Part shown: positions 1,841-60,805 of the stretch, one piece after another
Layout: every line of letters begins with the position of its first letter
Position numbering within the stretch: position 1 is the first letter of the stretch
Origin: Botryllus schlosseri
Taxonomy: Eukaryota
Direction: 5' to 3'
Assembly (NCBI GenBank): GCA_051294905.1
Contig: CM119372.1
Coordinates: forward strand, 31,932,001-31,996,000
DNA: 64,000 bases
Notes under the pieces: model-generated
Told to the model about the DNA's origin: nothing
Seen by the model: the letters and a program-made list of their open reading frames with translations, nothing else
Database searches by the model: none
Position numbers and translations under genes: made by a program

Positions 1841-3478
1841 TTAATCCAAATTCATAGCGCTCTGTACTCCGCCATACAACGAAATATGGATAAGAATGGT
1901 CGCCATAATATTTTCGGTATAAAATCTCGAAATGTAAATATCCCCCATCTTGATACCAGCCAGAAAAGTAAGGTTGGTGACAATGAGAAAACCGAACATA
2001 AAACACGACAAAAATCCTCTGAAACGTCTGCTCCACTGAGGCGTGAAGTATCGCCTTTCTAAATCTTTCACGGTGTCCATTCGATAGATCTTCATTGCAA
2101 TAAACTCTACCAGTACACCCAACCAGCTCATGGCAGACCATCTTATATGTCGTCGCATCGGTCTGTGCCACAGCACCACAAAGCTGAATGATGCTGTAAA
2201 ACTTAAAATTGCTCTAAACGGCCCATTTCGCGACCCTCCGCAAGGAATGTAAATGTACCGCACGATCCACTTGTGAAGACCTTTGTCAATAAGTTTCCAG
2301 AAATCGCTCATTCTATGTCTGGAGTAGACACACTGAGGCTGACCGGGTGGATCCAAACCATCGGAAGTGGCGAAATGAGCGGGTAAGCCATACATGACTA
2401 GATATTTGAAATAAAACAATCCGACCTGGGCCATCGAAAGTCCACATAGATGATAGATCTTCAATGTTTGGCTAGATGACCAATTTTCGTAGAGCAACGC
2501 CGATGCATACACATAATGCAAGACGAAGTCAATAAATAGATGATAAGTCGCAAACTTCACCAAATTCAGTATAAATTTAGTGGCTCTTGAAGATGTCCAT
2601 GGAGATGGCGGCATTTTAGACTGCTCCGCGAATTCGTTGTAATTCAGAACAGGCCCAACAAAAAGTAGGGGAAAATACATTTGATACATTAGCAGGTCCA
2701 AGAAGGTCAGGTCCTCATCTTTTTCATCCTCGTAGTATTGGGTCTTATTCTCTTTTAACATTTTTGACTTTTCTGTTTTCAGCTCACACTTTCTTCGATG
2801 TTGCAAAACATACTCGAGTCCAAAGCTAATGTTTCGCAAGATGCTCATTCCCACGCAAAGCCATAACATGTATATTTTATCAGGGTCGGATTTATAAAGT
2901 GCTTTCAGGGCTCCGTTCGTGTTGTGAAGCAAGTACATCAGTCCTAAACCGATGATCCAACAGGCCGTCACACTTTTTGTCAAACGCACCGTCCAAAATT
3001 GAATCACCAGATGACTCAATAGATACAATACGGCTTCAATGTGCAGGAAATACGCCGTGAATGCCAAGCTGTAGGCCAGTAGTATCTGAAATCTTCTTTC
3101 TGGGAATATCTTGTCAGCCAATCTCGCAACGATGAAATGCCCAGTAAATCCGCGAATGTAGCCATCCCGGACGTGATATTTCCAGAAAGACCAATGCGAA
3201 TCGGTATTATCCAAGTGTCGCCCAAGCCAATCTATCCATCCATTTTCCAACAGTCCTTTCTTTACAAATTCATTCTCGCGTGACGATGATACCGGAATCA
3301 AAGTGCATACTGTTACGATAACTCCTCCACTCCACAACAGCATACAAATAATAACTTCAACGGAATTTAATTTCGGATAATATTTCTTCCTAATCTCAGT
3401 CGTTGCTTGAAAATCGGACGCAGCCGATTTCACGTTTTCTGCCCCTTCGCTGAATTTTTGAGCAGTTTTTGTACGCAT
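1841..3478 (-). CDS. HHAT: Hedgehog acyltransferase-like MBOAT protein (protein-cysteine N-palmitoyltransferase), single coding exon, 545 aa
   Basis: Long ORF with many transmembrane segments and HHAT/Rasp/Gup1-type motifs: YFPLLFVGPVLNYNEF, LFYFKYLVMYG, FWKLIDKGLHKWIVRYIYIPCGG and FSFVVLWH (catalytic His). Confidence 0.88.
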   Translation of the reverse strand: MRTKTAQKFSEGAENVKSAASDFQATTEIRKKYYPKLNSVEVIICMLLWSGGVIVTVCTLIPVSSSRENEFVKKGLLENGWIDWLGRHLDNTDSHWSFWKYHVRDGYIRGFTGHFIVARLADKIFPERRFQILLAYSLAFTAYFLHIEAVLYLLSHLVIQFWTVRLTKSVTACWIIGLGLMYLLHNTNGALKALYKSDPDKIYMLWLCVGMSILRNISFGLEYVLQHRRKCELKTEKSKMLKENKTQYYEDEKDEDLTFLDLLMYQMYFPLLFVGPVLNYNEFAEQSKMPPSPWTSSRATKFILNLVKFATYHLFIDFVLHYVYASALLYENWSSSQTLKIYHLCGLSMAQVGLFYFKYLVMYGLPAHFATSDGLDPPGQPQCVYSRHRMSDFWKLIDKGLHKWIVRYIYIPCGGSRNGPFRAILSFTASFSFVVLWHRPMRRHIRWSAMSWLGVLVEFIAMKIYRMDTVKDLERRYFTPQWSRRFRGFLSCFMFGFLIVTNLTFLAGIKMGDIYISRFYTENIMATILIHISLYGGVQSAMNLD

Positions 3479-5260
3479 TGCTTAAACTATTTTGCTTGAC
3501 ACTGAATCGGCGAGATAAGCTTACAAACGACATGTACGTGGTTTATCTCATAAAACTTACAGGAAATCTCTCGATCGATCTTGTTGAAAGCGATTATACG
3601 ACTTGCCGCTTCATGGTAAAAGCGGAAACAATAAACTTCGAAATATTGCATAACTATTGTGTATGTTGTTTTGCCGCAGGGCTAGTTCGGTTTCAATGAA
3701 CCACTTATCAAGTACAAAATTTTATAATCCCCTCGAACCAGATTAAACTATTTCGTCACCGGCACCTTATAAGCATTGGAGGCGAATAAAACGTCTGAAA
3801 CGCTTCAAAACCCCCACGAACGAGATGAAAAATAATATAGGCTAGTATTCATACACGTTTAGTCATTCGTATCTAACGGATGCAGAGCCCGCCTTTGGTA
3901 AAATAGGAATGTGAATGGAACATGCTGTGATACATCGGAAATCGAGACATTCTTTTACCATAATCATGATTACTCTTACAATATAATAAGACAGAATAAT
4001 TCTTACTGAACGCAGAGACGGAAATATCGAGGTGTATAACTTTGTCTGCGTGCGTTCGGGATTAAGAAATGTTACCTACATATAAATATAACAAACGATG
4101 TAGATTCTTACTGAATACTACAAAAGATGATGCTCATGTTGCCACGTATAGTTGAGTTGGCTATTTAGTCTACGAGTTCCCAACTTGTGGGTTATGGCTC
4201 CTCGTTGATTTTAGAGAAAATGAACTTGCGCGCTTGGGACGACGTCGGTGCCGTGGGCATAAGTTATCAATCGACAGAAGCAGATAATGTTGTTATTAGT
4301 ATTATTATTAGACACAACAGTGGTGCTTTTAGCCAGTTTTAAGTGCACCGTTGTCCTTCTCGGATCCACGCTACCGATGCATAACGTGTATCGTACTTAA
4401 ACTTAACAGCCTTTACATCACACCAGCCGTTTTTAAACTTTACTAACCGGGCGAAACCTTACGCTGATCTGCAAGCATAAGGCGGAACACGAAATATTTG
4501 CTTAGTCGCAAAAACGAAATTTTACCACATTACACTGGCCACCAGTAACGAAGTAGGCTACTTGTACCGTTCAAAGTTCTTTGTGCAGTTTTCCCTACTC
4601 GTACTATACTTCCCCAAGTATAGTTATGAGTTTAGACTACTTCTACTTTTACTTGACAATATTAAGTTTATGAGGAAAATGCCTAGAGTAGGCCTACTTA
4701 CATAGTTGCATACTGATGTTTCTACTTCTTATTGGGTCGAAAGTTACGGCGTTACTTTTGCTTCTACTTGAGTACCGACGGTGACTACTTTGACCACCTC
4801 TGCATTACATATCTAATACATACAATACTGGAACACAATATGTTCTGTGCATCTGGAACAGTGTAGGAAGAAAAAAACATTCAAGCATGATTTCCACACA
4901 TATCAGATAGGCTGCAATTTGGAGTGACTTACTCGGGCGAGTCGGGTGTGTGTCTTGCACTGTTACATCTAAGCTGCGCGCACAAAAAAGTTGGGGGATG
5001 TAACGTACCCATTTGGAAATTGTTAAAGTGTATCAAGTAAGTATAACAATGGAAGATGTATATGTGTACTTGGTTTCAACTTGAATATATATATTTGAGG
5101 GATGGATGTCATGCTATTACAAACTTCCACAGGCCAGGCAACGTCTAAAAGAAAGGAGAAATACGTCGACATTAGCGACAAATTGAAGCGGCTTTGTGAT
5201 GAAACGTGGTCAACCGACATGACTACAAATTTTCGGTCAATAGTGGCATACAATCTAAGT

Positions 5261-8959: not shown

Positions 8960-9470
8960 ATCAACAAATATGACATCAACATTCAACGGCATGAAATTTT
9001 AAAAAATCGAGGTGAAGAGATCGCATAAGCTCAATTTCCTATTTTCGTGGTACACGAACTCCTTCTGTTGGCAGAAACTGTGTTGCAGGGAGCAGTTGGG
9101 TTGTCGTGAAAATCGCATTGCGCACTATGTCGTTAGTTACTGACCGCAAAAATCAATTGTTTTTTCAAAGTGGGTGGGAATAGGACCAACCCATGGTAGA
9201 TGGATAAACACATCTTTAGTTGTTCGTTCGGTAGGCTCTGTTGACTTTTTTGAGTTGAATTGCGATAATTTTCATCTCGGGGTAAACGCGTCATCAAAGA
9301 ACATTTTGCCGATGTTGTCAACCTCTAAACTCAGTTTGTCATTCGAACAGATCATCAACGCTTCATTCACCAGAGTGCCAATGAAGTTGATTTTTATACG
9401 TCTAGGACTAAAAGAATTTCAACATAGATATTGACGTGAGAATGTTGGTTTCCCGAAGACAGATAGCTAA
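8960..9470 (-). mobile_element. Decayed Penelope-like retroelement fragment (RT thumb/linker joined to the end of the GIY-YIG domain)
   Basis: Minus-strand translation with stops and frameshifts: SVFGKPTFSRQYLC*NSFSPRRIKINFIGTLVNEALMICS, then VFIYLPWVG..FEKQL, then CQQKEFVYH at about 9050-9075. Confidence 0.75.
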
Positions 9471-9822
9471 ATTTGTTGGTATAATATTTTCGATCAAAAC
9501 GTTCAGAAATGACAATAACTTAGAGCGTTATTTGTAATTGTGAATCGCAGGGTAAGGTGAAGCGACATCAAACGAACGATGAATTGACCACTTTCCAACT
9601 CGGATCGGCAAATCGATCGACCATTTCTCTGATCCGATTCACGTCTTGTTTCTTGAATTTATTAGTCCTGCCCCGGTTCTACTCCTAGACAGGATTCTGG
9701 AAATGAACGCAATCCAATCCGAAAAAATTATCGACAATTTCTGGTACTTATTCCTAGTAGAGCTTCTTGGAGGTACAGAACTTCAGTATACAATTGAATA
9801 GTATATATTCATATTGAAATGA

Positions 9823-9856
9823 ACCCGAATATTTTCGGCTGACACTCGTCAGGGGT
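9823..9856 (-). ncRNA. Minimal type I hammerhead ribozyme
   Basis: Minus strand reads ACCC-CTGACGA-GTGTCAGCC-GAAA-ATAT-TC-GGGT: complete core, stem I ACCC/GGGT, palindromic loop III. Confidence 0.75.
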
Positions 9857-10140
9857 AATCGTCATCTGTTGGATAATCCGATTTGTGCGAATAATTATCG
9901 AGACGATAAATTTCAGGTTATTGGGAGGGGCCGTTCACACTTTCACTTGTGTGCCTTGGAGTCGACTGTTATCAAAATACACCAACCGAAACTCTGTCAA
10001 CAGAAGGAGTTTGTGTACCACCTAGGAATAGTGCACTGAACGCTCTCTCATTCGAGGTTTCATGCTGGTGACGTCATATTTTGTGACACGATTGTTGATC
10101 TACAATGTTGTTTCTTATTCTCTACTAGTTGCTGACGATT

Positions 10141-10173
10141 ACCCTGACGAGTGTCAGCCGAAAATATTGGGGT
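10141..10173 (+). ncRNA. Hammerhead motif with mutated cleavage site (probably inactive)
   Basis: ACC-CTGACGA-GTGTCAGCC-GAAA-ATAT-TG-GGGT; UG in place of the required UH. Confidence 0.55.
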
Positions 10174-10689
10174 TCATTTCAATATGAATATTATATTCAA
10201 TTATTTCTAGTACTACAATAGCATTATAATATAGGCTACGGTACGGATTCATGTTATACATTGAATATTGCATGAGATTACCATACGCTCTCCTTCAAGA
10301 GAAGTGTTCTCCTTTTTGACAATTTGTCTTCATGTTAGCCTAAAATGCCCTAAAAGACCACGAAATACTTGTGATTCTGGTCTTGAAGACAGTCGGGTTA
10401 CTCGGGAGTCAAATCTGAAAAATAACCATTTTTAAGTCAACACTGATAACACTGTGCTGCGTTAATTTTATGGTTACCAAAGTATTGACGGTTTTTAGTG
10501 TACTTTTTGATGCTGAATCCAAAACTGTTATCCGTTTTCTTCAATCAGGTCTAGATTTTTGGCAAATTGCATTTGAATATTCAAATACTGCAGGTTTCAG
10601 CGTTATGCGATTTAGAAAGGATTTAGCAATCATGCTTTGATGAAAAGTTAAGACTATATTTCAATTATGACGAAGACCATTCCCTAAAG

Positions 10690-18888: not shown

Positions 18889-19382
18889 CTATACCGATTC
18901 TTGAGGAATCCTCCTCTGGAGCTCAGACGTATTGAACTGGTACTTTCTGCGAGATGCTTATAAATAGCGCAAAGTATATAATTGCAGCGGCGTCGTCAGG
19001 TTGTCTGGGGGGAGGGTCGATTTTGAGAACCACTGTCCTATTGATGGTGGTCCGGTAACCACGAGCCATGATTAGTTTTTCACATTACCATTACCTTGCA
19101 GTAGGGCTGTTCAAAATTATTTTTCCGGATTCCAGCCATTCACTGACTAAATTGTCAACGAAAAGCTCAAATAACTCCGCTTCTACTTGTTGGAATTGAG
19201 TCAAATTTGTTTTGCATCGTTTTTGAAGGCAACACAACAATTTCATGGGGTTGACAGTGGAAATTTAATATGAAGTGGTCAACCTGCAGACGTGCGGTCG
19301 CATGCAGCCGTCAAACAATAATTATGCGGCCCTCTACACCGAATCAAAAAACGCGAAACAATAACTTCATATTGTTAATTTA

Positions 19383-19422
19383 TTCGCTAAAAGCTTTTCG
19401 ACTGACCCTCATCAGTAGCGAA
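19383..19422 (-). ncRNA. Minimal type I hammerhead ribozyme (second family)
   Basis: Minus strand reads TTCGCTA-CTGATGA-GGGTCAGTC-GAAA-AGCT-TT-TAGCGAA: 7-bp stem I, intact core, palindromic AGCT loop. Confidence 0.75.
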
Positions 19423-19870
19423 CGTAAGTGATAGGGTGGATCAAATTCGAAATGTGTCTATGAAGTAATAATAACAAAAACAAACAACTAGTAGACGGGC
19501 AAGATACGGTAGTAACGACACAAAACAAACGTTAACGAGCACATATTCGGATATAAATAACCGAGAGCACAGCACACAACATTAATCAAAAAATCAAATC
19601 AAAAAAGCGTGTGTAGGCGACCGTCAATATGCAATTTGAATTAACGAATTGGTTCCCAAATCTTTGAGAGATTATAATTAAACTTGAAAATTTTATTCAC
19701 GCTTAGCGCGATTCAGCGTGCCTTGGATTTTTCAATTTCAATATAAAAGCGTAATCTGATCCTCGCCGTACGAATGCAAACCGCAGAGGAAAATGATGCA
19801 CCCTGTGAAGATATACCAAGTTGGGATCGTGTGAGTCTCACGAATGAAGGTGTTTCTCGTACCTCCAGGT

Positions 19871-21941
19871 CAGTGCTTTTCAAACTGTGTGACGGTTCGC
19901 ACTTGTTCGAATTAAATAAATTGCAGTGCGAATGACGAAGGTGGTGCGAACGGTGCGAATGACAATCCGGATCTATAGTGCAATGAAAATCATCAATAAT
20001 TGTTAATTTTTCTGACATCGAATAATTCAGATAAACGTAATACGAAATTTAAGGTCAGTGTAACTTTTGTAGATGCGACACAATTGTAAAAACTTGTTTA
20101 ACTTAAGACGCATCACTAATCGTAGCTCTCACAGGCCGTAGTGAATTTGTATTTTCGCACTATTATTATTACGTAACCAAAAGCCTGGTTTGGAAGCTGG
20201 TGTAGTGTCAGACATACAGTGTATCAACCCGTCTGAGCCTGCGACTGACTGAAAAAAATGACGTCAAATTGAATTTATGCTTTCTTTCGCTAAACAATCA
20301 TCATATTTTCGTAATAACTGTTCGATTAGCGCGAGGCAAGAGGATAGTTGTAAATACCATAATTACAGTTAAGAATTACAGGGTTATTCAAGTATGGACC
20401 GCGAAGGGTATACTTTGGGTCGACACGGTGCCACAGCTTTTTGTTAATTTGCCTGAAATATTTGTTGAGTTTATTGCAAAAAATCCTGCGACAGTTTTTA
20501 CATATTCGAGGTCACTGTGTTGGATACTGTAGCCAATAAGCGAAAACGCAGAAAATATGGCTTTATCATGAGACTTCATGATGAGATTAGTCCGACTGTT
20601 TTTTTTTTTCTTTCTAGAAAACATGGTCGAAGACCGTTGACATGAACAAGTGTAGGGATGTGCAACGAGAGAGTTCAGGCCTATGAGACTCCTTTGAGAT
20701 TCCTTTTCATGGGTGAGGCTCGGGTTGGGTGTAGGGCTGGGCACAATGATTCGAGTAGTTGAATCTGAATCAAGTATTAATTTTAATGATTCAAGTCGAG
20801 TAGTAAAAACCGATTTTTTCGAGTACTGAAATTATACGCTCCTCGCAATTGAAAGTTAATTTGGCAACGAGAATTATAGTTTCGATACTATTTTCCACTG
20901 TGGAAACCTTGAAACCTTGATCGGCCGTATCGCAGCATACGAAACAGTACAAAGCTACGAACGTTGCTGGGAATAACACAGTTCCGAAGTCATGATTATC
21001 CCACAACATTGGGACAAAGTGCAATGAAATCGGTGTGGTCCAAAAAAATACCAAAGTATCTTTAATGTGATGGATAACAGGCATTGTATTGTTTATGGTG
21101 GCATAAAAGGTACATGTTTGAACTTTGACATATTACATTATGTTATGACGCCATAACGAGTAATACTCGAATACTCGACTCGAAGCATAATACGTGATTC
21201 AGAATCGAATCAGCCAGGTACTCGATTTTGCCCAGCCCTAGTCGCAAGATGCCACAAAAACTCAGATTTTGGTGGTAGTCCAAACGCTGCTTTACCGTTT
21301 TTAAACTGTTATGAATTCTCAAGTTAGATTGAGCTAAAGAGCAGAACACACAGTATCGTGAGTTTATATTTGCTCTTCTCATATACTCGCGAGACAGAAG
21401 TTGGATCAACTTAACGTATCATACGGTAGCGAGCTCTAATGTGCTTACTCTCCTTGATCGTTTTGCATCTTGTGTTCCAAGAAATGAGGCAAAAGCCTCA
21501 ACACAAGCATGTGGGGTTTTCACCCATTCCACAAACTGGAGCCTCCGAGACCTTTGTGTCAGCTCTCACAAACGATTTCTGCCAGCAAGCATTTTTCACT
21601 CACGAAAAATACGCTGTATTTTGGATAGGAGTGCAGAACAGATTTTAAAACCTGGCCATCCAAGCACTAGTAGACGTTCTTGTACAAAGCCTAACAACAT
21701 TGTTTGGCCGAGGAGGGTTTTAGTGAAATAGTTGAGATCAAAACGAGCGAAAAAATTGCTTTTTTAATGTAACACTTTGACAGCATAAGCTGCATAATAG
21801 CCAATTTGTTGCACATCTGAACCAAATGTTGTTAAGTATCATCAGCTTCTTTTAGTATAGTAATTTTCGATTAGTTTGTGCGAATGAAATTTATTTTCCA
21901 AAAAAATAGCGAATGGAGCTCAAAAAGGTAGAAAAGCACTG
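19871..21941 (+). mobile_element. Decayed Charlie-type hAT transposon with transposase remnant
   Basis: Termini CAGTGCTTTTC / GAAAAGCACTG; about 21530-21770 translates FWIGVQNRF*NLAIQAL..TT/LAEEGFSEIVEIKT, resembling the hAT dimerisation domain. Confidence 0.7.
20732..21240. mobile_element. hAT MITE family B (TAGGGCTGGGCA TIR)
   Basis: About 510 bp, collinear with copies at 41521 and 49710; no TSD visible on this copy. Confidence 0.85.
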
Positions 21942-28775: not shown

Positions 28776-29468
28776 GTAAGTTGTTACTGATATTACAATC
28801 GCGATTACAAAACCATCGATAACAATGTCTTCGAGAGCATTTTTACAGAGTTAGGGTATTTTGCTTTCCCTTGTGCCAATAATCCATCACTCATTTCAAA
28901 CTCCTTTCAATTCACAATTCTACACGGGAAGCAAGTTCATCCTCAACTGGTCGCATTCGTACCGTGTGGGGGGCTGAGATTGCTATTGCCTGACCCATGT
29001 TCCCTCTAAGCTGCACATAGGGCTCTTCAAAAATTACTTAATTTCTAAAATCGTACTGGCTACTTGATAAAATTGTTAGGTCACCTAATTTAAGCCTACA
29101 CACAAAATTTTGTTCAATTCCAGCCAGTAACCGCTTTGCTACAGGAGAAGAAACTTTTTCTTTATTATATAAAAATGAATAATGAAAAATTTGAAATTTC
29201 CTGTTCTCCCCATGAAAGTGTTAGGCTGTCTATAGAAACGATGCTAACCAAATTTGGTTCAATTCCAACCAGTGGAAGCGGAGTTATTGCTGTCGAAAAA
29301 TTGTGATTTGGATATAATAGTATTTACGGTGAGCACAACTATAATAAATAAACAAAGAATCGGTCACCGTAAATACTATTTTATTCAAATCCAAATTTTT
29401 CGATGGCAATAACCCCTCTTCCACTGGTTGGAATTGAACCAAATTTGGTGAGCATCGTTTCTATAGAC

Positions 29469-30490
29469 CAGGGGTGGGCAAACTTTTGAGCTCGCAGGCC
29501 GCATTCGACATCTGAATCCATTCGCGGGCCGCACTATATAAAATTGGGATTATAAACCAAAACGCAATAATGGTATTTGATTATATAGTGAGGACGTGTA
29601 GATGCTTATTTAAAACAAACCAAGCATTTCGTTGATGATATCGTACATCCGCCAGAAACAGTCGCGAGATTTCATAGGCTGGTCGACCTCAACAACCAAT
29701 TTGTCAAAACTATAGGGATGAAAGTCGGTGGTACCGATTCTTAAAATAGGATATAAATTTAAATCTGTCGGCAGCGATCGGTTCATAGATTTGTTAATTC
29801 CACTTTGGTTCAGTTCCTGGATACACAATGCTGACAGCATCATAACCATGTTAGCTTCCAACACGCTTCTACTGTGTGTGGATAAAATATAAATACCCTA
29901 ATTCTACGCATACAGAGAACGAATCTAGCTAAGACAAGCGCGAATCGTTTTTCATAAGAACATCACTGAAAAAATTGAAACTGTCGCGCCAGACATTTAA
30001 CACAAAAAATAATCTAGGAAGTATTTACCTTAGAACAGTAGTTTTCAAACTTTTCCCCCTTACGATGGTGAAAGTTTACGTGTCCCCTTTATCGTCATAT
30101 CACAAAACGCAACCAGGATGCGAGCAAACCTAACGGGTAGTTTGATGGCATGGAAGGCTACGACTGTGGATGAGAGATTTTTAAATATTAAATTGAGACT
30201 AAATGCAGAACAACAACTGTAAATTGGATGGAAATCGTGCGGGGCGCGAAAAATTTTTTCAGTTGATCTCAGCTTCGCGCCCTTCTTAAGATGCTTTCAC
30301 CCCCTCAAGGTGGGCGCGCCCACCAGTTTGAGAACCACTTCCTTAAAAATATCATGGTGAAATATACTAAAAAGTTTAATCAAGTCCCTGTAATAATTCG
30401 ATTTTTAGTATGCATTTCATCAATATTTTTAAAAAGTTTCTTTAGACTCTCGCGGGCCGCACAGAACGGGCCGTAGTTTGCCCTCCCCTG
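29469..30490. mobile_element. hAT MITE (CAGGGGTGGGCAAAC) nested in the foldback element
   Basis: Perfect TSD CTATAGAC at 29461-29468 and 30491-30498. Confidence 0.87.
30036..30340. mobile_element. Innermost hAT MITE of the nest
   Basis: CAGTAGTTTTCAAAC...GTTTGAGAACCACTT; TSD CCTTAGAA/CCTTAAAA. Confidence 0.7.
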
Positions 30491-32228
30491 CTATAGACAG
30501 TCTAACACTTTCATGGGGTGAACAGAAAATTTTCAAATTTTTTACTATTTAATTTTATATAATAAATAGAAACTTTCTTCTCATGTAGCAAAGCGGTTAT
30601 TGGCTGGAATTGAACCAAATTTTGTGTGTAGGCTTAAATTAGGTGACCTAACAATTTTATTAAGTAGCCAGTAAGATTTGAGAAAAAAGTCATTTTTGAA
30701 GAGCCCTACTGCACATGTGCGCAATTGCACAGTGCTTAGTTAGTCTCTGCGCACAGAAAAAATCTGAAGTGATGTCATTTTTTAGTCGTTATGCACTACT
30801 GTCGAAGGGACCGCGCAGTGAGTCGGTGAGTGTGCGCAGACTCGTCAAAAATTAGAGGGAACATTGGGTTGGCTATTTCGGTGGCGAACAAGATGCATGA
30901 CAAATATGGCTCAATTCCAACGTGTAGAAGTCAAATCATTGAGATACAAAATTAGGGATGTGAAACTTCGCTGGTATATATATTAGGTACATTTTACAGC
31001 TTGCTATAGTATCCCGTTCACCAAAGAAATGTTTGAAGCTGGCCCAGAACGATAACGGTGAGTTATACGATCTTCCAGGGCCGTCACACTCCGAACACAC
31101 AATTAGGGGAGCTCGACTGGACCCAAAATTACTTTGTTGGTCGTCTGTTGAAGTAGATTTTTGTCGTGCTTTGCGCGATTTTTTGTCCCTGTAGGTCTAC
31201 ATTTAAATATGATTAGTAAGATAAAAAGGTGCTTATAATAAATATGCAAATTGGCGGCGGCGATTACCCCACATTGAAAAGGACTGCGACTCTACTCTGT
31301 GGTAAGAGATGGGTCTCAAGAACATTTTCAAACCTGACAATGGGCCACGTCCAAAAGATGTCTGAAAACCCCTGGCTCATTAGCTTCTATATGTTGGAAT
31401 TAAGCCAAATTTGGCTCGCAGAGTTAAATCGATAATTTCGTCGAAGTAGATGGTAAAGTTTGACTTGGCTGTCACACTTCACCAAGTTCGTCGTGACTTC
31501 CTAAAGACGGTTCGGAATCCTTGGATGAATGTGACTTGACATGACCGTCCCACATTACTCACAACCAAACACATATAATGACTTTTGCTCTACTGCTAAT
31601 CAATCAAAGTAATCAATTCATTTATGTTATAGGACGATGATAAAGTCGAAAACAGGAGCAAGACTGTTATCGAGGAGGCAGAAGATTCCGATACCGATAA
31701 CATGGACTAATGCTAATGCATAAATATTTGCTGAAGTGATTGCACAGTTCTGTATCAAGGCCCAATTCTTGCTAACGTATTTTCTTCATCCATGTTTTTT
31801 TTTCGTGTTTTGTACTGATTTCATACAGAACGGAAAGCCATATACATGCTGATTTTTAAAAATGGCGATTAGTTTTCCTTCTGAACAGAAAGGCCTACCT
31901 CTTGCTGCCTACTTCTTGCTAACGTATGTTGTGTTAGGGACTGTTATTTTACCTTCATTCTTCATCCATTTTTATTCCAATTTTTCATCAAGGTCTAGTC
32001 CTGTGCATTTTTTTTGTATTTTGACTTGTCTTCGTCGAGGTCTAGTCCAGTGCATTTTTTTGTATTTTGAACTGGTACAATACAGAACAAGAAGCCATAC
32101 ATGATTTGTAAAACTGACGATTCGTATTCGTTCATGTGTGAAGTGCATCATATAGCAGGTTTAGCCAACCAGGGTTCAGGGTCACACAGGGTCGAGTTGT
32201 ACAAAAAATATCTTATCGAATATCGTTA

Positions 32229-40403: not shown

Positions 40404-40658
40404 TGTTATGTTCTTGATCTTGTTTGAACAATAGCTCAATGCGACGAGGTTGCAATACAGAATCAGTATATTATCAGCAGAATAACTTTACGTCAGCGAC
40501 ACGATCCAGAGTGCAGTTAAATGAAAGACCACGAGACAACAGAACACAGGGTATGAATACAAGCACGACACACGAGGAAATAATGATTGGCTGTAATTAC
40601 TAATCCTATAGAAAGAAAAGAGTTGTACGACACTAAACGTAAATGCACGAACATAACA
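40404..40658 (-). repeat. 3' LTR
   Basis: TGTTATGTTC...GAACATAACA; adjacent PPT AGGGGAGGAC on the minus strand at 40659-40668. Confidence 0.93.
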
Positions 40659-41520
40659 GTCCTCCCCTATAAGTTGAGAGGGTTGCCCACATTTACGTAG
40701 GTTTGTAGAAATCGGTTGGCTTTCTGTTCCTAAGAGGATAACGTCTACCCGACGTATGGGCAGGACTAGCTGCAGGACCTTGTGCCCTGTTCCTAACCAA
40801 TGGTTGCTCAGCTTGCGACTGTGGAGGCTGAGCAACTTCCTGTGTGGCTGTATTATTATTATGGCCAGCTGAAATCAAGCGTGGTTGGAGTTGGTTTTTG
40901 TGCCTCCTCCGATACCCATGATTCGTTTTTATAATGTACACAACACGCCCCAGTATTTCCGTCACCACGCCAGCAACCCACTTCGGTCCGCTTCGGTAAC
41001 TGCGAGCGTGAACCGAGGAACCAATCTCGAAATGAGTGACTGATTGTCTAGGCGTAACGGGTTTCGATTTATCGAAGGGCGAGCACAAACTTAACAAATT
41101 GCGCGGCTGCCGACCATGTAAAATCTCAGCAGGCGTTTTCCAGTGACAATTGTTATGGGCAAGTCTTCGATAGAGAAGACTTCCCTCAAAGCGTTGACTA
41201 CACACAAGGTTGTGGTAGAACCGACATTCATTACTTTAACGAAAGGATATTTCGAATGCGCATCGACGATGACAAGAAACATTTTATTGTTCATTGGACC
41301 TGCGAAATCCAAGTGAATTCGTTCAAAGCTTTCAGAAGTTTTTGGCCATTCGCGATACTGACGATCAGGCGCTTTCATTACTTTGCGGCAAGCGTCGCAA
41401 CTCTTAACGAGATTTTCAATGTCGCGATTAATGGAAGGCCATGCGATGTAACGTCGAGCCATCTGCTTCATTTTCGCGATACCCCAATGTCCTTCGTGCA
41501 ACAATGATAAGACTCGCGAG

Positions 41521-42034
41521 TAGGGCTGGGCACAATGATTCGAGTACTCGAATCTGAATCGAGTACTAATTTTAATGATTCGAGTCGAGTAGTAAATACG
41601 ATTTTTTTGAGTACTGAAATTGTACGCTTCTTGCCACTGAAAGTTAATTTATCAATGAGAATTGTCGTTCGATACTAATTTCCGCTGTTGAAGCCTTGAA
41701 ACCTTGATTGACGGTATCGTAGCATACCAAAGATATAGTACAAGCTACGAAGATTACAGGACGTAGCACAATTCCAAAGTCATGATTATCCCACAACATT
41801 GTCACAAAGTGGAATGAAAACGGTATGGTCGAAAAAATATCAAAGTATCATCTATGTGACGGTTAACAGGCAGTATATTCTTTGTAGTGGCATAAACGGT
41901 AAGTATTCGAACTTTGGGGTATTACATTCTGTTATGACGTAATAATGGGTGATACTCAATTACTCGACTCGACTCGAAGCATATTACGTGATTCAGAATC
42001 GAATCACTCAGGTACTCGATTTTGCCCAGCCCTA
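41521..42034. mobile_element. hAT MITE family B inserted at the start of the Gypsy integrase region
   Basis: TIR TAGGGCTGGGCA; perfect TSD CTCGCGAG at 41513-41520 and 42035-42042. Confidence 0.92.
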
Positions 42035-45000
42035 CTCGCGAGCGAAGTGACTGCGGAATTACTACGCGCTGAAAACCATCAATATTAAGCATGACAATGT
42101 CTTCGTGCAGAGAAAGCGAATGTTTGCGAGTCGGAAACCAAGAAAAATCATCAATATGCGTCTTTGGATTCCAATTGCAATGAGTGACAGATAATTTTAC
42201 TAGTTTCATGGTTTTGTCCTTCAGCGTCGCGTCGCGAATTTCATTGCAAGTTAACGCTAAGCCATCGAATGCCATATTAATAGCGTGAACGATCTCCGCG
42301 TTTTCACGAATTTCCAGTTCGTCAAACTCGGGGTCAGGACCCTTTGGTAGGCGAGATAAACCGTCGGCGTTTCCGTGCTGATTAGTCGGCTTATAGCGAA
42401 TATCGTATTGGTAAGCGTTAGTGCCCATCGCTGTAAGCGTTGCGCTGTAATCACGGGAATTTTCTTGTCCGGCGAGAAAATAGCTAAAAGCGGTTTGTGG
42501 TCCGTTACGAGCGTAAATTTTCTACCATACAAGAATTGACGAAATTTGGTGACTCCCTAAATGATTGACAGAGCTTCCTTCTCGATTTGAGAGTAGGACT
42601 TTCGCGAATCGGAAAGCGTTTTCGATGCGTGCGCGATCGGTCTCTCTTCGCTATTGTGCTCGATTGAGAGGACAGCGCCGATTCCGAATTGAGAGGCATC
42701 TGTTCACAAAATGAGATGCTTGTTTACATCATAATGAGCTAACTGCGTAGCGTCGATTACGTCGTTTTTGAGAATGCGAAAAGCTGCGTCACAGTCCGTA
42801 TTCCAAATGAAGTCCGCGTCATTTTGAAGAAGACGGTACAAGGCAGCGGCTTTATTCGTGAAATTAGGAATAAACGCGCGATAATAATTGACTTTGCCCA
42901 GGAATGCCTGCAGCTGGCGAACATCCTGAGGTTTAGGCAACTGTTTGATTGCTTCAACGGATTTGTTAGACGGGCGTTTGCCATCCTTGTCAATAATGTG
43001 ACCAAGATACTCGATGCTACTTTTGAAAAATCCACATTTAGCGAAGTTGACGGTGAAACCGTATTCGGTGAGGCGCTCAAAGAGTAGCGATAAGTTGCGA
43101 AAATGATCGCGTTCATCAATGCCAGTAACGATTATGTCATCGATAAAACTAGCAACACCGGGTAAGCCGGCGATCATGGCATCAATACAACGTTGAAAAT
43201 TTGCGGGACTAGATGTGACTCCGAAACACATGCGTCGATAACGGAATAGACCGAATTGCGTGTTAAGACACACAAATTCTTCGCATCATCATCATCTAAT
43301 TCTAGCTGAAAATAAGCATCGGCAAGATCAATTTTCGTGAAAATACAACCACCCTGTAACTTGAAGAATTTCATCTAAGGAGGGCAGAGGATGTTGATCT
43401 ATCTGAATTTGTTGATCCAATGCTTTGAAGTCACCACAAATGCGTACTGATCCATTAGACTAAGTGACGGCATCAATTGGTGCTGCCCAATCACTGTAAT
43501 TGATTGGTTCGAGGATACCTTGATCCTCGATACCTTGATTGACTAATCTATCCAATTCGGTTTGAACAGCGATTTGCCTTGCGAAAGGCAAAGGACGCGG
43601 CTTGCTAAATACGGGCTTGGCATTGGGTTTCAAGTGAATTGTCACCTTTGTCTTGGTGCATCGTCCTAATACATTAGAGAAAACGGAGGGAAATTTGGAC
43701 CGAAAAGATACCAATTTGTCGTTCGAATCAGAAATGTCAACAGTATTACATGATTGCGATTTGACCATCTGCAAGGAAATTGCATCCAAAGCAGACGTTC
43801 CCTTAGCGGTCATGGAGAAAGCATCGCTCCAATGGAGACCGAAAATTTTTGCCCACGGTGTTCGTCGAAAACTACCAATTTTAAGCCAACTCGAACTTCG
43901 GAACCCACCTGCACAGTTACAGTGCAAATACCTTTCACTTTCAATGGCTTGTCGCCGTACGCTACGAAAGAGCAATGGTATGCTGAGAGTTTCGGAGAGC
44001 CCAAAGTTTTGTACCCAGTCAATCCCACCATGCCGGAGGGTGCACCAGTGTCCCACTGTGTCGGCTACGGAATGCCGTTGATGCTGGAGTTGATCCAGAG
44101 CTGGTTTCCTACGCGTCGATATAGTTGATCGATGTCGAAGGAGAGGAGTGGCACTGAGCAGAAATTGACGGATGTGACACTAGGTTTGGTAGACATGCAC
44201 ACAGGTTTGATATGACCTTTACGACCATATTTCTGACATACTGCATGTCGATATTGACAGTCTTTTCTCTGGTGATCGATGAAACAGCGGCTGCAGGATT
44301 TCAGTCTTTCCGGGAAGTTGCCTTGGATGGATTTGGAAGGTTTTTTCCCCTTCTGATAACTTCCCGTCATTTTGTTGACGATGGAAGTGTCTTTACCGCT
44401 ACTCTCGCCCTGGATAACCCTATCAGTTTCCAGCGTTCTCACGTATGTTGCGGCTACTTTGAGAACGTCGTCAAGGGATGGATTGGTTTGTGTTGAACAA
44501 TGCCATCTCACATCCGCGTGCGGCGTTTCTTTAATGATGAGATCGCGCATTAGCTCATCAACGTAGCTCTGATCACAGCAGTCTCTTTTGAGCATATGAA
44601 GTTGCAATCCTTGGAGATTCCGCGTAGAGTAGCGATCCAATCGGCATATGATTGTCCCGGCTGCATTTTGCAATTGTAAAATTCGTACCTGGCTGCTTGC
44701 ACATGAATGGAGTCTTTGAAGTGTGTAGCCAACTTCTCAGTCAACGCGTCGAAGGTTTGCGCACTGACATCAGCAGCACCAAACAAATTACGTAGGAGCG
44801 AGTACGTTTCAGGTCCAACCCATGAGAGTAGACACGCTCTTTTTTTCTCCATGTTGGAAATGCCGTAAATGGCTAGGTGATGGTTGAATCGTTGCAGATA
44901 CTGGTCCCGTTTTTCCTTTGGTTTTACGAAAGAATCAAACTTGGGAGCGGTAGCTTCAGATGTTGACGCACCGGGACTCAACCTCTGCGTTGACTGTGCA

Positions 45001-45164
45001 TTTCTTCTTTGTGTCGGTTTTTTTGCTGTTCCAACCCAGCCATGACTTTCGCCATTGCTTCGTCATGCTGTGCGCGTTGTTGCTCCATCATTTCCTGCTG
45101 CTTCTCCAGAAGCTTCAAAATACCCGATTCCACGATATATATTCGTCGCAGAAATATAACTTTG

Positions 45165-45183
45165 AATCCGACTTCTGACACCA
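45165..45183 (-). other. Primer-binding site complementary to the tRNA-Leu 3' end
   Basis: Minus strand TGGTGTCAGAAGTCGGATT directly inside the 5' LTR; complementary, with one mismatch, to the tRNA-Leu end ...ATCCCACTTCTGACACCA. Confidence 0.8.
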
Positions 45184-45185
45184 AT

Positions 45186-45440
45186 TGTTATGTTCTTGAT
45201 CTTGTTTGAACAATAACTCAATGCGACGAGCTTGCAATACAGAATCAGTATATTATCAGCAGAAGAACTTTACGGTAGCGACACGATCCAGAGTGCAGTT
45301 AAATGAAAGACCACGAGACAACATAACACAGGGTATAAATACAAGCACGACACACGAGGAAATAATGATTGGCTGTAATTACTAATCCTATAGAAAGAAA
45401 GAGTTGTACGACACTAAAACGTAAATGCACGAACATAACA
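45186..45440 (-). repeat. 5' LTR
   Basis: Direct repeat of 40404-40658 with about 7 substitutions and 2 single-base indels, counted by eye. Confidence 0.93.
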
Positions 45441-45753
45441 GTAGAAGTAGCGTCGCTGGATTCTACTCAAGTACGAGTATATGTAGGCCTAATGCTTTTC
45501 GAAGTGGCAGTTGTGCAATGAGCATAAGGCGCCGCACTTCATCAATCCTCACATATGGTCAATTATTCCGAGGATCCGCGTACTTCTGTGCTAGTGTTGT
45601 TTGTTCCTCCCCGTAATTTGGCTTTTCGTGGTATGAAATTAGACTTTTCATTACATAACAGATAACATACTCTGCCCTGGCCCCTAAAATCTTATTTGTA
45701 TGCATGACTGACCCTCATCGGAGGCGTCTGGGAAAATGGAAACTCGGCTTGAG

Positions 45754-49141: not shown

Positions 49142-50504
49142 GGTTGCCAGTGAACCCGTCCCTCGGTGAACCCGTCCCTCGGTGAACCCGGCCCTCGGTG
49201 AACTCGGCCCTCGGTGAATTCCGCCCTCGAGAAATTTTGAAATTAAGTGTCTTAACAAGTATTAATATGAATTATTGAACTAATAATGGTATTATCAACT
49301 GATTTGTCGATCTGGTAAGGTGGTCAGGGCATGCGTAGATCACGCAGTCACGGAGTGATCAGATCACGTGATCACGATTGCGTGGTCGGCTCATTGTTGA
49401 ATTGACTTGGCGAGGGGCGGACGTGCGACGTTCGACATCCTCGTATCTGTTCATGACATCGCATTGGGTCTTATCGCATTGTATATTGTGTGTGACTTGT
49501 TCAGAGGAAAAATATATCCCAACGATTGTTATTGCTCACATATCAACCACGCGTGGTCTGCTCGTTATTGCAACTGTAGGTTGAGGTGGGGTGTTAGAGT
49601 TGGGTAGGGTAGGGGGGGAGGGAGACATTAGGGTTCGGGGAGTGGGACATTGGGTTCGGGTAGGATACTAGGGTTGGGGGAGGGGGGATATTAGGGTTAG
49701 GGTTAGGATTAGGGCTGGGCACAATGATTCGAGTACTCGAATCTGAATCGAGTATTAATTTTAATGATTCGAGTCGAGTAGTAAAATACGATTTTTTCGA
49801 GTACTGAAATTATGCGCTCCTCGCAACTGAAAGTTAATTTGCTGACGAGAATTATTGGTCTGATACTATTTTCCACTGATGCAGCCTTGAAACCTTGATT
49901 TGCCGTGTCGCAGCATAAGAGACATAGTACAAAGCCACGAACGTTACTGGAAATAACACATTTCTGAAGTCATGATCATCCCACAACATTGTCAAGAAGC
50001 GCAATGAAATCGGTATGGACGAAAAAATACCGACGTATCGTTAATGTGACGAATAACAGGCATTATGTTCTTCGTGGTGGCATAAAAGGTTCATATTTGG
50101 ACTTTGACATACTACATTCTGTTGTGACGTCATAATGAGTGATACTCGAATACTCGACTCGACTCGAAGCATTTTACGTGATTCAGAATCGAATCACTCA
50201 GGTACTCGATTTTGCCCAGCCCTAGTTAGGATATTAGGGTTGCCGGAGGTGGGATATTAGGGTTGGGGGAGGGGGATATTAGGGATGGGGGAGGGGGGAT
50301 ATTAGGGTTAGGGTTAGGATATTAGGGTTGCCGGAGGTGGGATATTAGGGTTGGGGGAGGGGGGATATTAGGGTTGGGGGAGGGGGGCTATTAGGGTTGG
50401 GGTAGGATATTAGGGTTGGGGTAGGATATTAGGGTTGCCGGAGGTGGGATATTAGGGTTGCCGGTGAATACAAAATTTCCCGAGGGACGGGTTCACTGGT
50501 AATC
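49142..50504. mobile_element. Foldback/MULE-like non-autonomous element with 16-bp subterminal repeats and a TTAGGG-like G-rich array
   Basis: Left end GGTTGCCA followed by about 5 copies of GTGAACCCGTCCCTCG; right end CGAGGGACGGGTTCACTGGTAATC; flanking direct repeat (TC)GAGTCAAT of 8-10 bp. Confidence 0.75.
49710..50224. mobile_element. hAT MITE family B inserted in the G-rich array
   Basis: TIR TAGGGCTGGGCA; perfect TSD GTTAGGAT. Confidence 0.92.
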
Positions 50505-54488: not shown

Positions 54489-54750
54489 AAGAGCTTCTTG
54501 AGGTACAGTTTATTTAATATACTATTGAATAGTATATTCATATTGAAATGAACCTGTATATTTTATGCTGACACTCGTTAGGGGTAATCCTCAGAAACTA
54601 GTAGAGAATTGGAAAAAACATTGTTTATCATTGTGTAACTTTTTATTATGTGACTTTCCAATCCTTCACTAGTTGCTGACGATTGCCCCTGACGAGTGTC
54701 AGTCGAAAATATTCGGGTTCATTTCAATATCACTATGCTATTCAATATTG
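54489..54750. mobile_element. Penelope-like pLTR remnant as an inverted pair
   Basis: Homologous to 9759-9865 and 10100-10205; the two arms are reverse complements. Confidence 0.75.
54685..54718 (+). ncRNA. Minimal type I hammerhead ribozyme
   Basis: GCCC-CTGACGA-GTGTCAGTC-GAAA-ATAT-TC-GGGT. Confidence 0.7.
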
Positions 54751-60700: not shown

Positions 60701-60805
60701 AGAATCCGCTATTGTAATGTACTATCGTGGTGGGTGTTTCTAATATAGTCTACGCTAACACACGGGACTGCTACAAGGATATGCGATACACGTGACTGCG
60801 CCGCT

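What the first reader, a model, noticed from the sequence alone, without database searches (positions are those of the whole stretch)
19342..19606. Second hammerhead family in a short ORF-less insert (retrozyme or solo-pLTR candidate)
Seen: TTCGCTA-CTGATGA-GGGTCAGTC-GAAA-AGCT-TT-TAGCGAA on the minus strand. Compared with the 9823 motif, stem I is entirely different yet fully paired (7 bp), and the loop III palindrome changes from ATAT to AGCT while the core and spacing stay the same, which is covariation-like support. It sits in a segment of about 250 bp bounded by AATCAAAAAA direct repeats, apparently inserted into a hAT MITE, with no coding remnant. A decayed GACTGACCCTCATC trace is at about 45706. 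Inference: a non-autonomous ribozyme-bearing retroelement family, possibly undescribed in this lineage.
Basis: partly seen in the sequence, partly recalled or inferred. Interest (0 to 1): 0.72.

Follow-up and report, generated by a model that had tools for sequence, protein, structure and literature searches.

The report
Penelope retrotransposon stump with knotted hammerhead
This 240-base insert is the cut-off tail end of a common Penelope-type jumping gene, not a separate protein-free element; its small hammerhead RNA motif is real, is predicted to be braced by a knot-like pairing that related families keep with different letters, and is likely damaged in this copy.

Summary
The hammerhead is real (minus strand, 19422-19383; 0 of 200 shuffles give one like it). 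The insert, 19352-19590, lies between true 10-bp target-site duplications and belongs to a high-copy family. It is not a retrozyme. Sister copies run on at both ends. Upstream they read as the C-terminus of a Penelope-like (PLE) RT-GIY-YIG protein, with the stop codon at 19584-19582. Downstream they read as the same proteins' N-terminus, with the ATG at 19370. Full PLEs from metagenomes show the same layout (stop, about 170-195 nt, hammerhead, ATG). So this is a 5'-truncated PLE copy: a solo pLTR plus a short tail. No head-to-tail junction was listed, and the insert does not fold stably. The 45706 trace is unsupported. One feature is unusual: a predicted 6-bp pseudoknot between loop II and the 5' flank, kept by compensatory changes across five families and within this one. 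This copy has a private mismatch in the middle of it. Cleavage is untested, and the autonomous partner's ORF was not retrieved. The scan had already noted this knotted PLE hammerhead on other pieces of the same genome.

The parts
19342..19351 (+). Target-site duplication at the element's 3' end (AATCAAAAAA); its last 2 nt overlap the element's tail
   Evidence: host paralogues lack the insert and carry about 10 letters here once (tables 5 and 5c)
19350..19370 (-). Start of the PLE ORF ('tail'): ATG at 19370-19368, reading MKLLFRV; sister copies read on ILKFCT
   Evidence: loose ends before 19350/19354/19356; N-termini of full PLE proteins
19383..19389 (-). Hammerhead stem I, 3' strand
19390..19390 (-). 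N17 = U; predicted cut 3' of it, 19 nt before the ATG
   Evidence: no variant at 10% or more in 4 runs
19391..19399 (-). GAAA core box and palindromic stem III (AAGCUU), predicted to close only in a dimer
   Evidence: PMC4209133
19400..19408 (-). G10.1-C11.1 pair (19408/19400), one variable base (19407) and the pseudoknot 3' arm (19406-19401)
19409..19415 (-). CUGAUGA core box
19416..19422 (-). Hammerhead stem I, 5' strand
19424..19429 (-). Predicted pseudoknot 5' arm; this copy has a private U at 19426 that mismatches C at 19404
   Evidence: 19426 differs from the window in 16,915 of 16,954 depth in X2 and in 78 of 78 reads in X21
19430..19581 (-). 3' UTR / pLTR body, with a deletion of about 14 nt near 19455-19459 relative to sister copies
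   Evidence: tables 4, 7, 8
19582..19590 (-). Last two codons and stop (F-D-stop) of the PLE ORF; 5' truncation point, with 7-nt microhomology to the target
   Evidence: loose ends behind 19590 in X23 (29 reads), X5 (2 contigs), X21 (13 reads) and X16 (1 contig); frame read by hand
19591..19596 (-). 6-nt junction filler that repeats target letters (likely primer slippage)
   Evidence: slippage is inference
19597..19606 (+). Target-site duplication at the element's 5' end
9860..10202 (+). Sister family 1: 5'-truncated copy with the GIY-YIG C-terminus (stop 10037-10039), pLTR and hammerhead (core at 10144)
9078..9877 (-). Sister family 1: opposite-strand copy with hammerhead (core at 9852), ORF start and decayed RT/thumb fragments (9604-9078)
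54490..54747 (.). Sister family 1: inverted pair of pLTR ends (cores at 54689 + and about 54577 -, the latter decayed)

Best explanation
The insert is a 5'-truncated copy of an abundant Penelope-like retrotransposon, likely laid down by target-primed reverse transcription, and it holds the element's last codons, 3' UTR/pLTR, a hammerhead motif and the first seven codons of the ORF between 10-bp target-site duplications. How it works. (1, inferred from PMC11167929) The element's RT-GIY-YIG protein nicked A/T-rich DNA and began copying inside the ORF start of a tandem transcript, which is why the 3' end lies 21 nt into the ORF. (2, inferred) Copying stopped after about 240 nt and was joined to the target through a 7-nt microhomology, with 6 nt of slippage. 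(3, shown) The motif has the hammerhead core, a 7-bp stem I, a 1-2-bp stem II and a palindromic stem III. (4, predicted from covariation) Loop II pairs with 6 nt just 5' of stem I, and this pseudoknot stands in for helix II and the usual loop-loop contact. (5, inferred, untested) In the full element two copies close stem III as a dimer, probably helped by the element's protein, and cut after U17 just before the ATG, separating tandem units and setting the 5' end of the ORF RNA. (6, inferred) This solo copy is likely inert: it has no tandem partner, the pseudoknot has a central mismatch, and its lowest-energy fold buries the core.
For: Sister copies continue past 19590 in 4 of the 8 runs laid, among the loose ends shown. 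The continuation reads QKERLYTLGI in frame with the window's F-D-stop, and 85 of 174 retrieved PLE proteins carry C-x-Q-K in their last 20 aa. Beyond 19350 sister copies read ILKFCT; 8 of 15 proteins of 750 aa or more have FC[T/S] in their first 24 aa. These proteins are RT + C-terminal GIY-YIG (RVT_1 in 3 of 3 scanned; GIY-YIG at E 1e-4 and 0.025, just under the cut-off, in 2 of 3). Family 1 in the window has a GIY-YIG C-terminus directly before its hammerhead, 86% identical to P0001. Stop-to-core distance is 166 nt here (about 180 with the deletion) against 166-195 in 4 of 4 loci measured and 104 in family 1. L011 has the same hammerhead on both sides of a frameshifted ORF. Pseudoknot: an arm ending 8-9 nt before the core pairs with loop II in L006, L009, L015/L017/L068/L069 and family 1. 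It is 81% paired in the 12-row alignment; the whole structure scores 0.304 against 0.108 in shuffles (0 of 500) and at most 0.124 when slid. Within family 2, position 19426 is G in some copies (pairs C19404) and A in others, where 19404 is U; in X16 both changes show one contig at the same depth, 515.4.
Against: The autonomous ORF of this exact family was not retrieved: none of 174 proteins carries its C-terminal motif, and DNA scans for the motif found 0. The ORF link rests on 30-letter loose-end consensuses (agreement 0.84-1.0 at the 5' end, only 0.49-0.74 at the 3' end; the X21 consensus at 19350 differs) read by hand. No read starts or ends pile up at the predicted cut in 2 raw-read RNA runs (table 6), although these libraries would hardly show it. 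Six of the 12 aligned rows from loci are mostly one family from shared samples, so about five families count, and the structure was derived from these same sequences. The pseudoknot is broken in L011 (first copy), L041, the 9852 copy and this copy. U17 is a slower cut site than C17 (recalled). Rfam gives no hammerhead hit here or on the 10144 copy.
Confidence: 0.88

Rival explanations
1. A non-autonomous retrozyme family: pLTR-sized units that are copied as circles or tandem arrays by a PLE protein, this being a monomer.
For: Size, low GC (36%) and a long TSD fit PMC7229834. Preprint 10.64898/2026.07.22.740005 argues that animal retrozymes derive from pLTRs and occur as monomers. The family is abundant.
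Against: Both ends are ORF-derived and longer copies run into the ORF. None of the 5 joints is head-to-tail, nor any of the 15 shown (143 not shown). The insert folds less stably than shuffles (z +1.8). The hammerhead lacks the 4-bp helix II of canonical retrozyme motifs. Depth falls off towards the 5' end, as expected for 5' truncation.
Confidence: 0.07
2. The element reading is right, but the loop II pairing is an on/off switch rather than a brace: loop II can pair either with the upstream arm or with the CUGA core itself, so cleavage is off until protein binding or dimerisation tips the fold.
For: The minimum-energy folds of this copy and of two family-1 copies pair loop II with the core. 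The upstream arm repeats the core's first letters in family 1, family 2 and the L015 family. The Anolis PLE hammerhead cleaves only with protein (PMC11167929).
Against: L009 and L006 keep the upstream pairing with letters that match the core only partly. The folding program cannot model pseudoknots, so the inactive hairpin wins by default. Brace and switch are not exclusive.
Confidence: 0.3
3. The motif is kept for protein binding or as a passenger, and never cleaves usefully in vivo.
For: Hammerhead mutants did not affect insertion in vitro, and no RNA-seq ends were found at the cut site, for the Anolis element. Naiad PLEs thrive without a canonical motif. The core variant UUGAAGA occurs in the L015 family.
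Against: Core, spacing, NUH and palindrome are kept across five families while the stems change.
Confidence: 0.2

Closest known systems
EN+ Penelope-like elements with C-terminal GIY-YIG, most like Penelope/Poseidon (PMC8557442, passages; PMC11167929, parts 1-2 of 4)
   Same: pLTR with a type I hammerhead, 5' truncation, inverted partial copies, a 3' end inside the ORF start, an A/T-rich target; relatives have RT then GIY-YIG with two cysteines inside the motif and no CX2-5CxxC linker (read in P0003).
   Different: Only the last 240 nt are present. The 3' end is 21 nt into the ORF, against 111-118 nt in the Anolis element. The cut lies before the ATG, not 26 nt after it. The clade is assigned by motifs only; no tree was built.
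Minimal hammerheads of metazoan PLEs (Cervera and De la Pena 2014, PMC4209133; parts 1-2 of 4 read, supplements searched)
   Same: Type I, G10.1-C11.1, palindromic stem III, many sequence families per genome, mostly solo copies from truncated elements.
   Different: Their helix II is long (6-8 bp) and helix I short. Here helix II is 1-2 bp, helix I is 7 bp, and a 6-bp pseudoknot is predicted. 'Pseudoknot' was not found in the supplement file searched (one file could not be searched).
Pseudoknotted hammerheads (Perreault et al. 2011, PMC3088659, passages; Zhan et al. 2024, PMC11300833, part 1 of 6)
   Same: A 6-bp pseudoknot braces or replaces helix II; a fast example with a one-pair stem II is described; about 40% of the hammerheads examined there likely use such a contact.
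   Different: Those have a self-contained stem III and are mostly microbial. In Zhan's form the knot uses a separate stem-loop (helix IV). Here it uses a single-stranded 5' flank and is combined with a dimer-type stem III in an animal retroelement. Rfam gave no hit.
Non-LTR retrozymes (PMC7229834, part 2 of 6; preprint 10.64898/2026.07.22.740005, parts 1-2 of 5)
   Same: Size 150-450 bp, low GC, type I hammerhead, long TSD, kinship with pLTRs.
   Different: No tandem unit, ORF-derived ends, no stable self-paired fold, non-canonical helix II.

Membership tests
EN+ Penelope-like element (truncated copy) | ORF with RT and C-terminal GIY-YIG endonuclease | tested here: inconclusive
   Not inside the insert. 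Both junction read-outs match the termini of RT-GIY-YIG proteins, and the sister family shows it directly; the family's own ORF was not retrieved.
EN+ Penelope-like element (truncated copy) | Type I hammerhead in the pLTR between the ORF stop and the ORF start | tested here: met
   Stop-to-core 166 nt, cut-to-ATG 19 nt; relatives 166-195 and 3-41 nt.
EN+ Penelope-like element (truncated copy) | 3' end (tail) lies within the ORF start, variable between copies | tested here: met
   ATG at 19370; loose ends at 19350, 19354 and 19356 continue in frame.
EN+ Penelope-like element (truncated copy) | 5' truncation, tandem or inverted arrangements, variable-length TSD | tested here: met
   Truncated at 19590 with a 10-bp TSD; inverted pairs in family 1; one opposite-strand joint in family 2.
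Penelope/Poseidon clade | CCHH motif in the endonuclease, no CX2-5CxxC linker, and placement in the RT phylogeny | tested here: inconclusive
   Motifs fit in relatives P0001 and P0003; no tree was built; not testable on the insert itself.
Non-LTR retrozyme | At least two tandem units, each with a hammerhead | tested here: not met
   Single copy in the window; no head-to-tail joint among those listed; a genome-wide check was not possible.
Non-LTR retrozyme | No coding sequence | tested here: not met
   Ends are ORF stop and ORF start; longer copies continue into the ORF.
Non-LTR retrozyme | Stable, highly self-paired RNA that accumulates as circles | tested here: not met
   Fold -37.3 against -44.5 +/- 4.0 kcal/mol in 100 shuffles. 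Circles themselves are not testable with these libraries.
Hammerhead ribozyme, type I | CUGANGA and GAAA boxes, A15.1-U16.1, NUH site, three helices | tested here: met
   Helix III forms only through the palindrome; helix II is 1-2 bp.
Hammerhead ribozyme, type I | Site-specific self-cleavage | not testable with these tools
   Needs a cleavage assay.
Cervera-type minimal PLE hammerhead | Long helix II (6-8 bp) with short helix I | tested here: not met
   Helix II 1-2 bp, helix I 7 bp.
Pseudoknotted hammerhead | Watson-Crick helix between loop II and the stem-I side, supported by covariation | tested here: met
   met for the family, 5 of 6 pairs in this copy.
Pseudoknotted hammerhead (Zhan 2024 PK form; Rfam models) | Knot formed from a separate stem-loop (helix IV); match to a curated model | tested here: not met
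   The partner is a single-stranded flank; Rfam gave no hammerhead hit at E <= 10.

The most novel reading that the evidence does not exclude
One branch of Penelope-like elements carries a hybrid hammerhead: a 6-bp pseudoknot of the kind that makes microbial hammerheads fast, joined to a dimer-only stem III, with the cut 3-41 nt before the element's ATG. Because loop II can pair with either the upstream arm or the core, it may be a switchable ribozyme that cuts only in tandem transcripts and creates an uncapped 5' end from which the RT-endonuclease is translated, as reported for some RNA viruses (PMC13725137, passages).
Probability: 0.2. Interest if true: 0.7.

Novelty: new variant of a known kind. 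Interest (0 to 1): 0.33.

Why it matters
The insert itself is ordinary: one of many stumps of a Penelope-like element. What has value is the motif's build. PLE hammerheads are known for very low activity, and their role is open. A braced variant with natural compensatory pairs, including two subfamilies of one family and a naturally broken copy here, gives ready-made constructs to test whether PLE hammerheads cut efficiently and whether the cut, just before the ATG, serves translation or unit release. Rfam misses the motif, so such copies are probably under-counted.

Tried and rejected
No whole genome is held, so there was no genome-wide copy count or tandem search. Rfam: no hit at gathering thresholds in the window; only 2 unrelated weak hits around the insert; none on the 10144 copy. 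Exact-pattern scans found 0 in metagenome contigs and 0 in viral contigs; no PLE relative in viral contigs. BLASTN of the insert against 95 loci gave only 21-36-nt matches. No earlier finding by sequence. No RNA holder was listed; this is no evidence on expression. Reads from 2 raw RNA runs lay on the insert but come almost wholly from other copies (5 of 586 and 17 of 443 at 99% or better), so they do not show that this copy is transcribed. In X21 about 85-95% lie in the direction that implies the hammerhead strand; in X23 both directions are similar. The 45706 trace was rejected. A different cleavage register was rejected: only N17 = 19390 keeps the 7-bp stem I. U17 as decay was rejected: no variant at 10% or more, and 5 of 10 palindromic motifs listed also have U. 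The window-copy pseudoknot energy was taken one base off register and is not used. Pfam did not recognise the 58-aa family-1 fragment. Literature searches listed no paper describing a pseudoknotted hammerhead in PLEs. However, Lunse et al. (RNA Biol 14:1499, seen only in a reference list) on small PLE-associated hammerheads is not held, and may cover it; from recall, its abstract mentions a pseudoknot between the region before stem I and loop II as common in other hammerheads.

Full report
Observation. The motif is in the sequence as written, on the minus strand from 19422 to 19383: a 7-bp stem I, CUGAUGA, a 9-nt segment opening with G and closing with C, GAAA, the palindrome AAGCUU, U17 and the second strand of stem I. 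A hammerhead descriptor with palindromic stem III finds 2 motifs in the window with at least 4 stem-I pairs and 1 with at least 7; 200 shuffles give a mean of 0.005 and 0. Rfam does not recognise it. The window holds four copies of a sister motif (family 1) at 9852, 10144, 54689 and about 54577, in two inverted pairs. The 45706 trace is a 14-nt match without flanking similarity. Such a match is common by chance for the whole insert (9 of 60 shuffles) though not for the motif alone (0 of 60), and a model of the motif scores nothing there. I treat it as unsupported.

Boundaries and copy number. No genome is held, so I laid 8 of the 24 listed public runs on the locus. Summed contig depth over the insert in run X1 is 17,000-190,000 per bin, against 7-17 for single contigs. 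The tool warns that this is no copy number, but the family is plainly abundant. Eleven of the 15 joints shown (143 not shown) link the left flank to the right flank without the insert, with about 10 A/T-rich letters between. The host repeat therefore exists empty and AATCAAAAAA is a real TSD (19342-19351, 19597-19606). These are paralogues; the allelic empty site was not seen. The left flank from 19102 is the end of a MITE family with hAT-like features, but the insertion point lies in the loop of a short inverted repeat in a lower-depth segment.

What the insert is. Sister copies do not stop where this one does. Behind 19590, reads and contigs in four runs continue with the same 23-30 letters. 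Read by hand on the minus strand, these give QKERLYTLGI, in frame with the window's F-D-stop at 19590-19582. Beyond 19350 they continue the frame that starts at the ATG at 19370, giving MKLLF(R/C)VILKFCT (consensus agreement only 0.49-0.74). The family-1 copy at 10144 is preceded by a 58-aa frame ending QKEFVYHLGIVH-stop. That fragment retrieved two proteins at 88% and 81% identity, and these retrieved full-length RT + GIY-YIG proteins. Of 174 proteins, 85 carry C-x-Q-K in the last 20 residues, and 8 of the 15 longest carry FC[T/S] in the first 24. Decayed RT/thumb sequence lies at 9604-9078. Loci from metagenomes show the whole layout: ORF stop, 166-195 nt, hammerhead of the same spacing, ATG 3-41 nt after the cut. 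L011 has the motif on both sides of its frameshifted ORF. The insert has 166 nt (about 180 before a 14-nt deletion) and 19 nt. It is thus the 3' end of a PLE: stop codon, pLTR, hammerhead and ORF start. This matches the published tail model, in which reverse transcription starts inside the ORF start and the endonuclease prefers ATT in A/T-rich DNA (PMC11167929); the TSD here ends in ATT on the element's strand. The 5' junction has 7 nt of microhomology and 6 nt of filler. The family's own full ORF was not retrieved, so this link is strong but indirect. Motifs point to Penelope/Poseidon; no tree was built.

Retrozyme test. Retrozymes are tandem, non-coding units whose RNA folds into stable circles. 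The insert is single, its ends are coding-derived, no head-to-tail joint was listed, and it folds worse than shuffles. I give that reading 0.07; tandem arrays elsewhere in the genome cannot be excluded without the assembly.

The motif's build. Six letters of the 9-nt segment pair with six letters ending 8-9 nt before the core. The pairs differ between families: family 1 GCUGAC:GUCAGY, the L015 family UCUGAC:GUCAGA, L009 UGACGC:GCGUCA and L006 GCAUU:AAUGC. In family 2 nearly all copies differ from this one at 19426, in two ways: G, pairing C19404, or A, together with U at 19404. In X16 both changes show one contig at depth 515.4, and the depths nearly match in X13 (228.5 and 226.6), less so in X2 (5,830 and 3,264) and X21 (52 and 41 reads). 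On a 12-row alignment the knot is 81% paired, even though L009 and L006 are out of register there. The whole structure exceeds 500 of 500 shuffles and all slid controls. Cautions: about five independent families, a structure derived from the same rows, and broken arms in L011, L041, the 9852 copy and this copy. A model built from the alignment found 4 further copies in the 95 loci beyond its training rows. Pseudoknots that brace hammerheads, including one with a single-pair stem II, are known and are needed for fast cleavage (PMC3088659; PMC11300833). Published PLE minimal hammerheads instead have a long helix II. Seven searches listed no description of the knotted form in PLEs, but the most relevant paper could not be read. 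I noted the pairing before looking up earlier findings by words and place; searches then showed that the scan had recorded it repeatedly on other pieces of this genome. Those notes are not independent evidence.

Function. Shown: sequence, boundaries, family variation, layout. Inferred: insertion by TPRT; cleavage by dimers after U17 in tandem transcripts, perhaps protein-assisted as in the Anolis element; a role in unit release or in setting the ORF RNA's 5' end. Loop II can also pair with the core, and that fold is the lowest in energy for this copy, so a switch is possible. This copy is likely inert. RNA reads show that family sequence is transcribed from other copies; no ends pile up at the cut.

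Verdict. Real, but the element is a known kind of leftover; the hammerhead is a variant worth a bench test. Interest 0.33.

Noticed in passing
window 9078-10202: Family-1 PLE locus with the typical inverted layout: a minus-strand copy (hammerhead, ORF start, decayed RT/thumb) head to head with a plus-strand 5'-truncated copy (GIY-YIG end, hammerhead).
   Followed up: yes
window 54490-54747: Second inverted pair of family-1 pLTR ends; the minus-strand hammerhead is decayed.
   Followed up: partly
window 19389-19398: In family 2 the palindrome extends to 10 nt (AAAAGCUUUU; self-duplex -7.9 kcal/mol), taking in core A13/A14 and U17; it could trap an inactive dimer.
   Followed up: partly
L001 4529, L011 384, L015 1359, L068, L069: A related PLE family has U instead of C at core position 3 (UUGAAGA), and its ATG lies 3 nt after the cut.
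   Followed up: partly
window 40404-45442: Gypsy-type LTR retrotransposon with 258-bp LTRs 96.5% identical (40404-40660, 45186-45442) and broken gag/pol frames on the minus strand (class named from recalled motifs).
   Followed up: no
window 1841-3481 (-): Intronless 546-aa frame with an MBOAT domain; resembles hedgehog acyltransferase (recalled).
   Followed up: no
window 60749-63298 (+): 849-aa frame with several C2H2 zinc fingers.
   Followed up: no
window 29018-30708: 1.7-kb element with about 220-bp inverted ends and a near-perfect 8-bp flanking duplication, hAT-like; relatives at 19102 and 39241.
   Followed up: partly
window 20722-21248, 41513-42042, 49700-50226: Three copies of a 520-bp repeat, 83-86% identical, with weak terminal inverted similarity; one interrupts the LTR element.
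   Followed up: no
L081-L095: PLE RT relatives in contigs filed as bacterial MAGs, probably eukaryotic contamination; some carry ordinary minimal hammerheads after the ORF.
   Followed up: no
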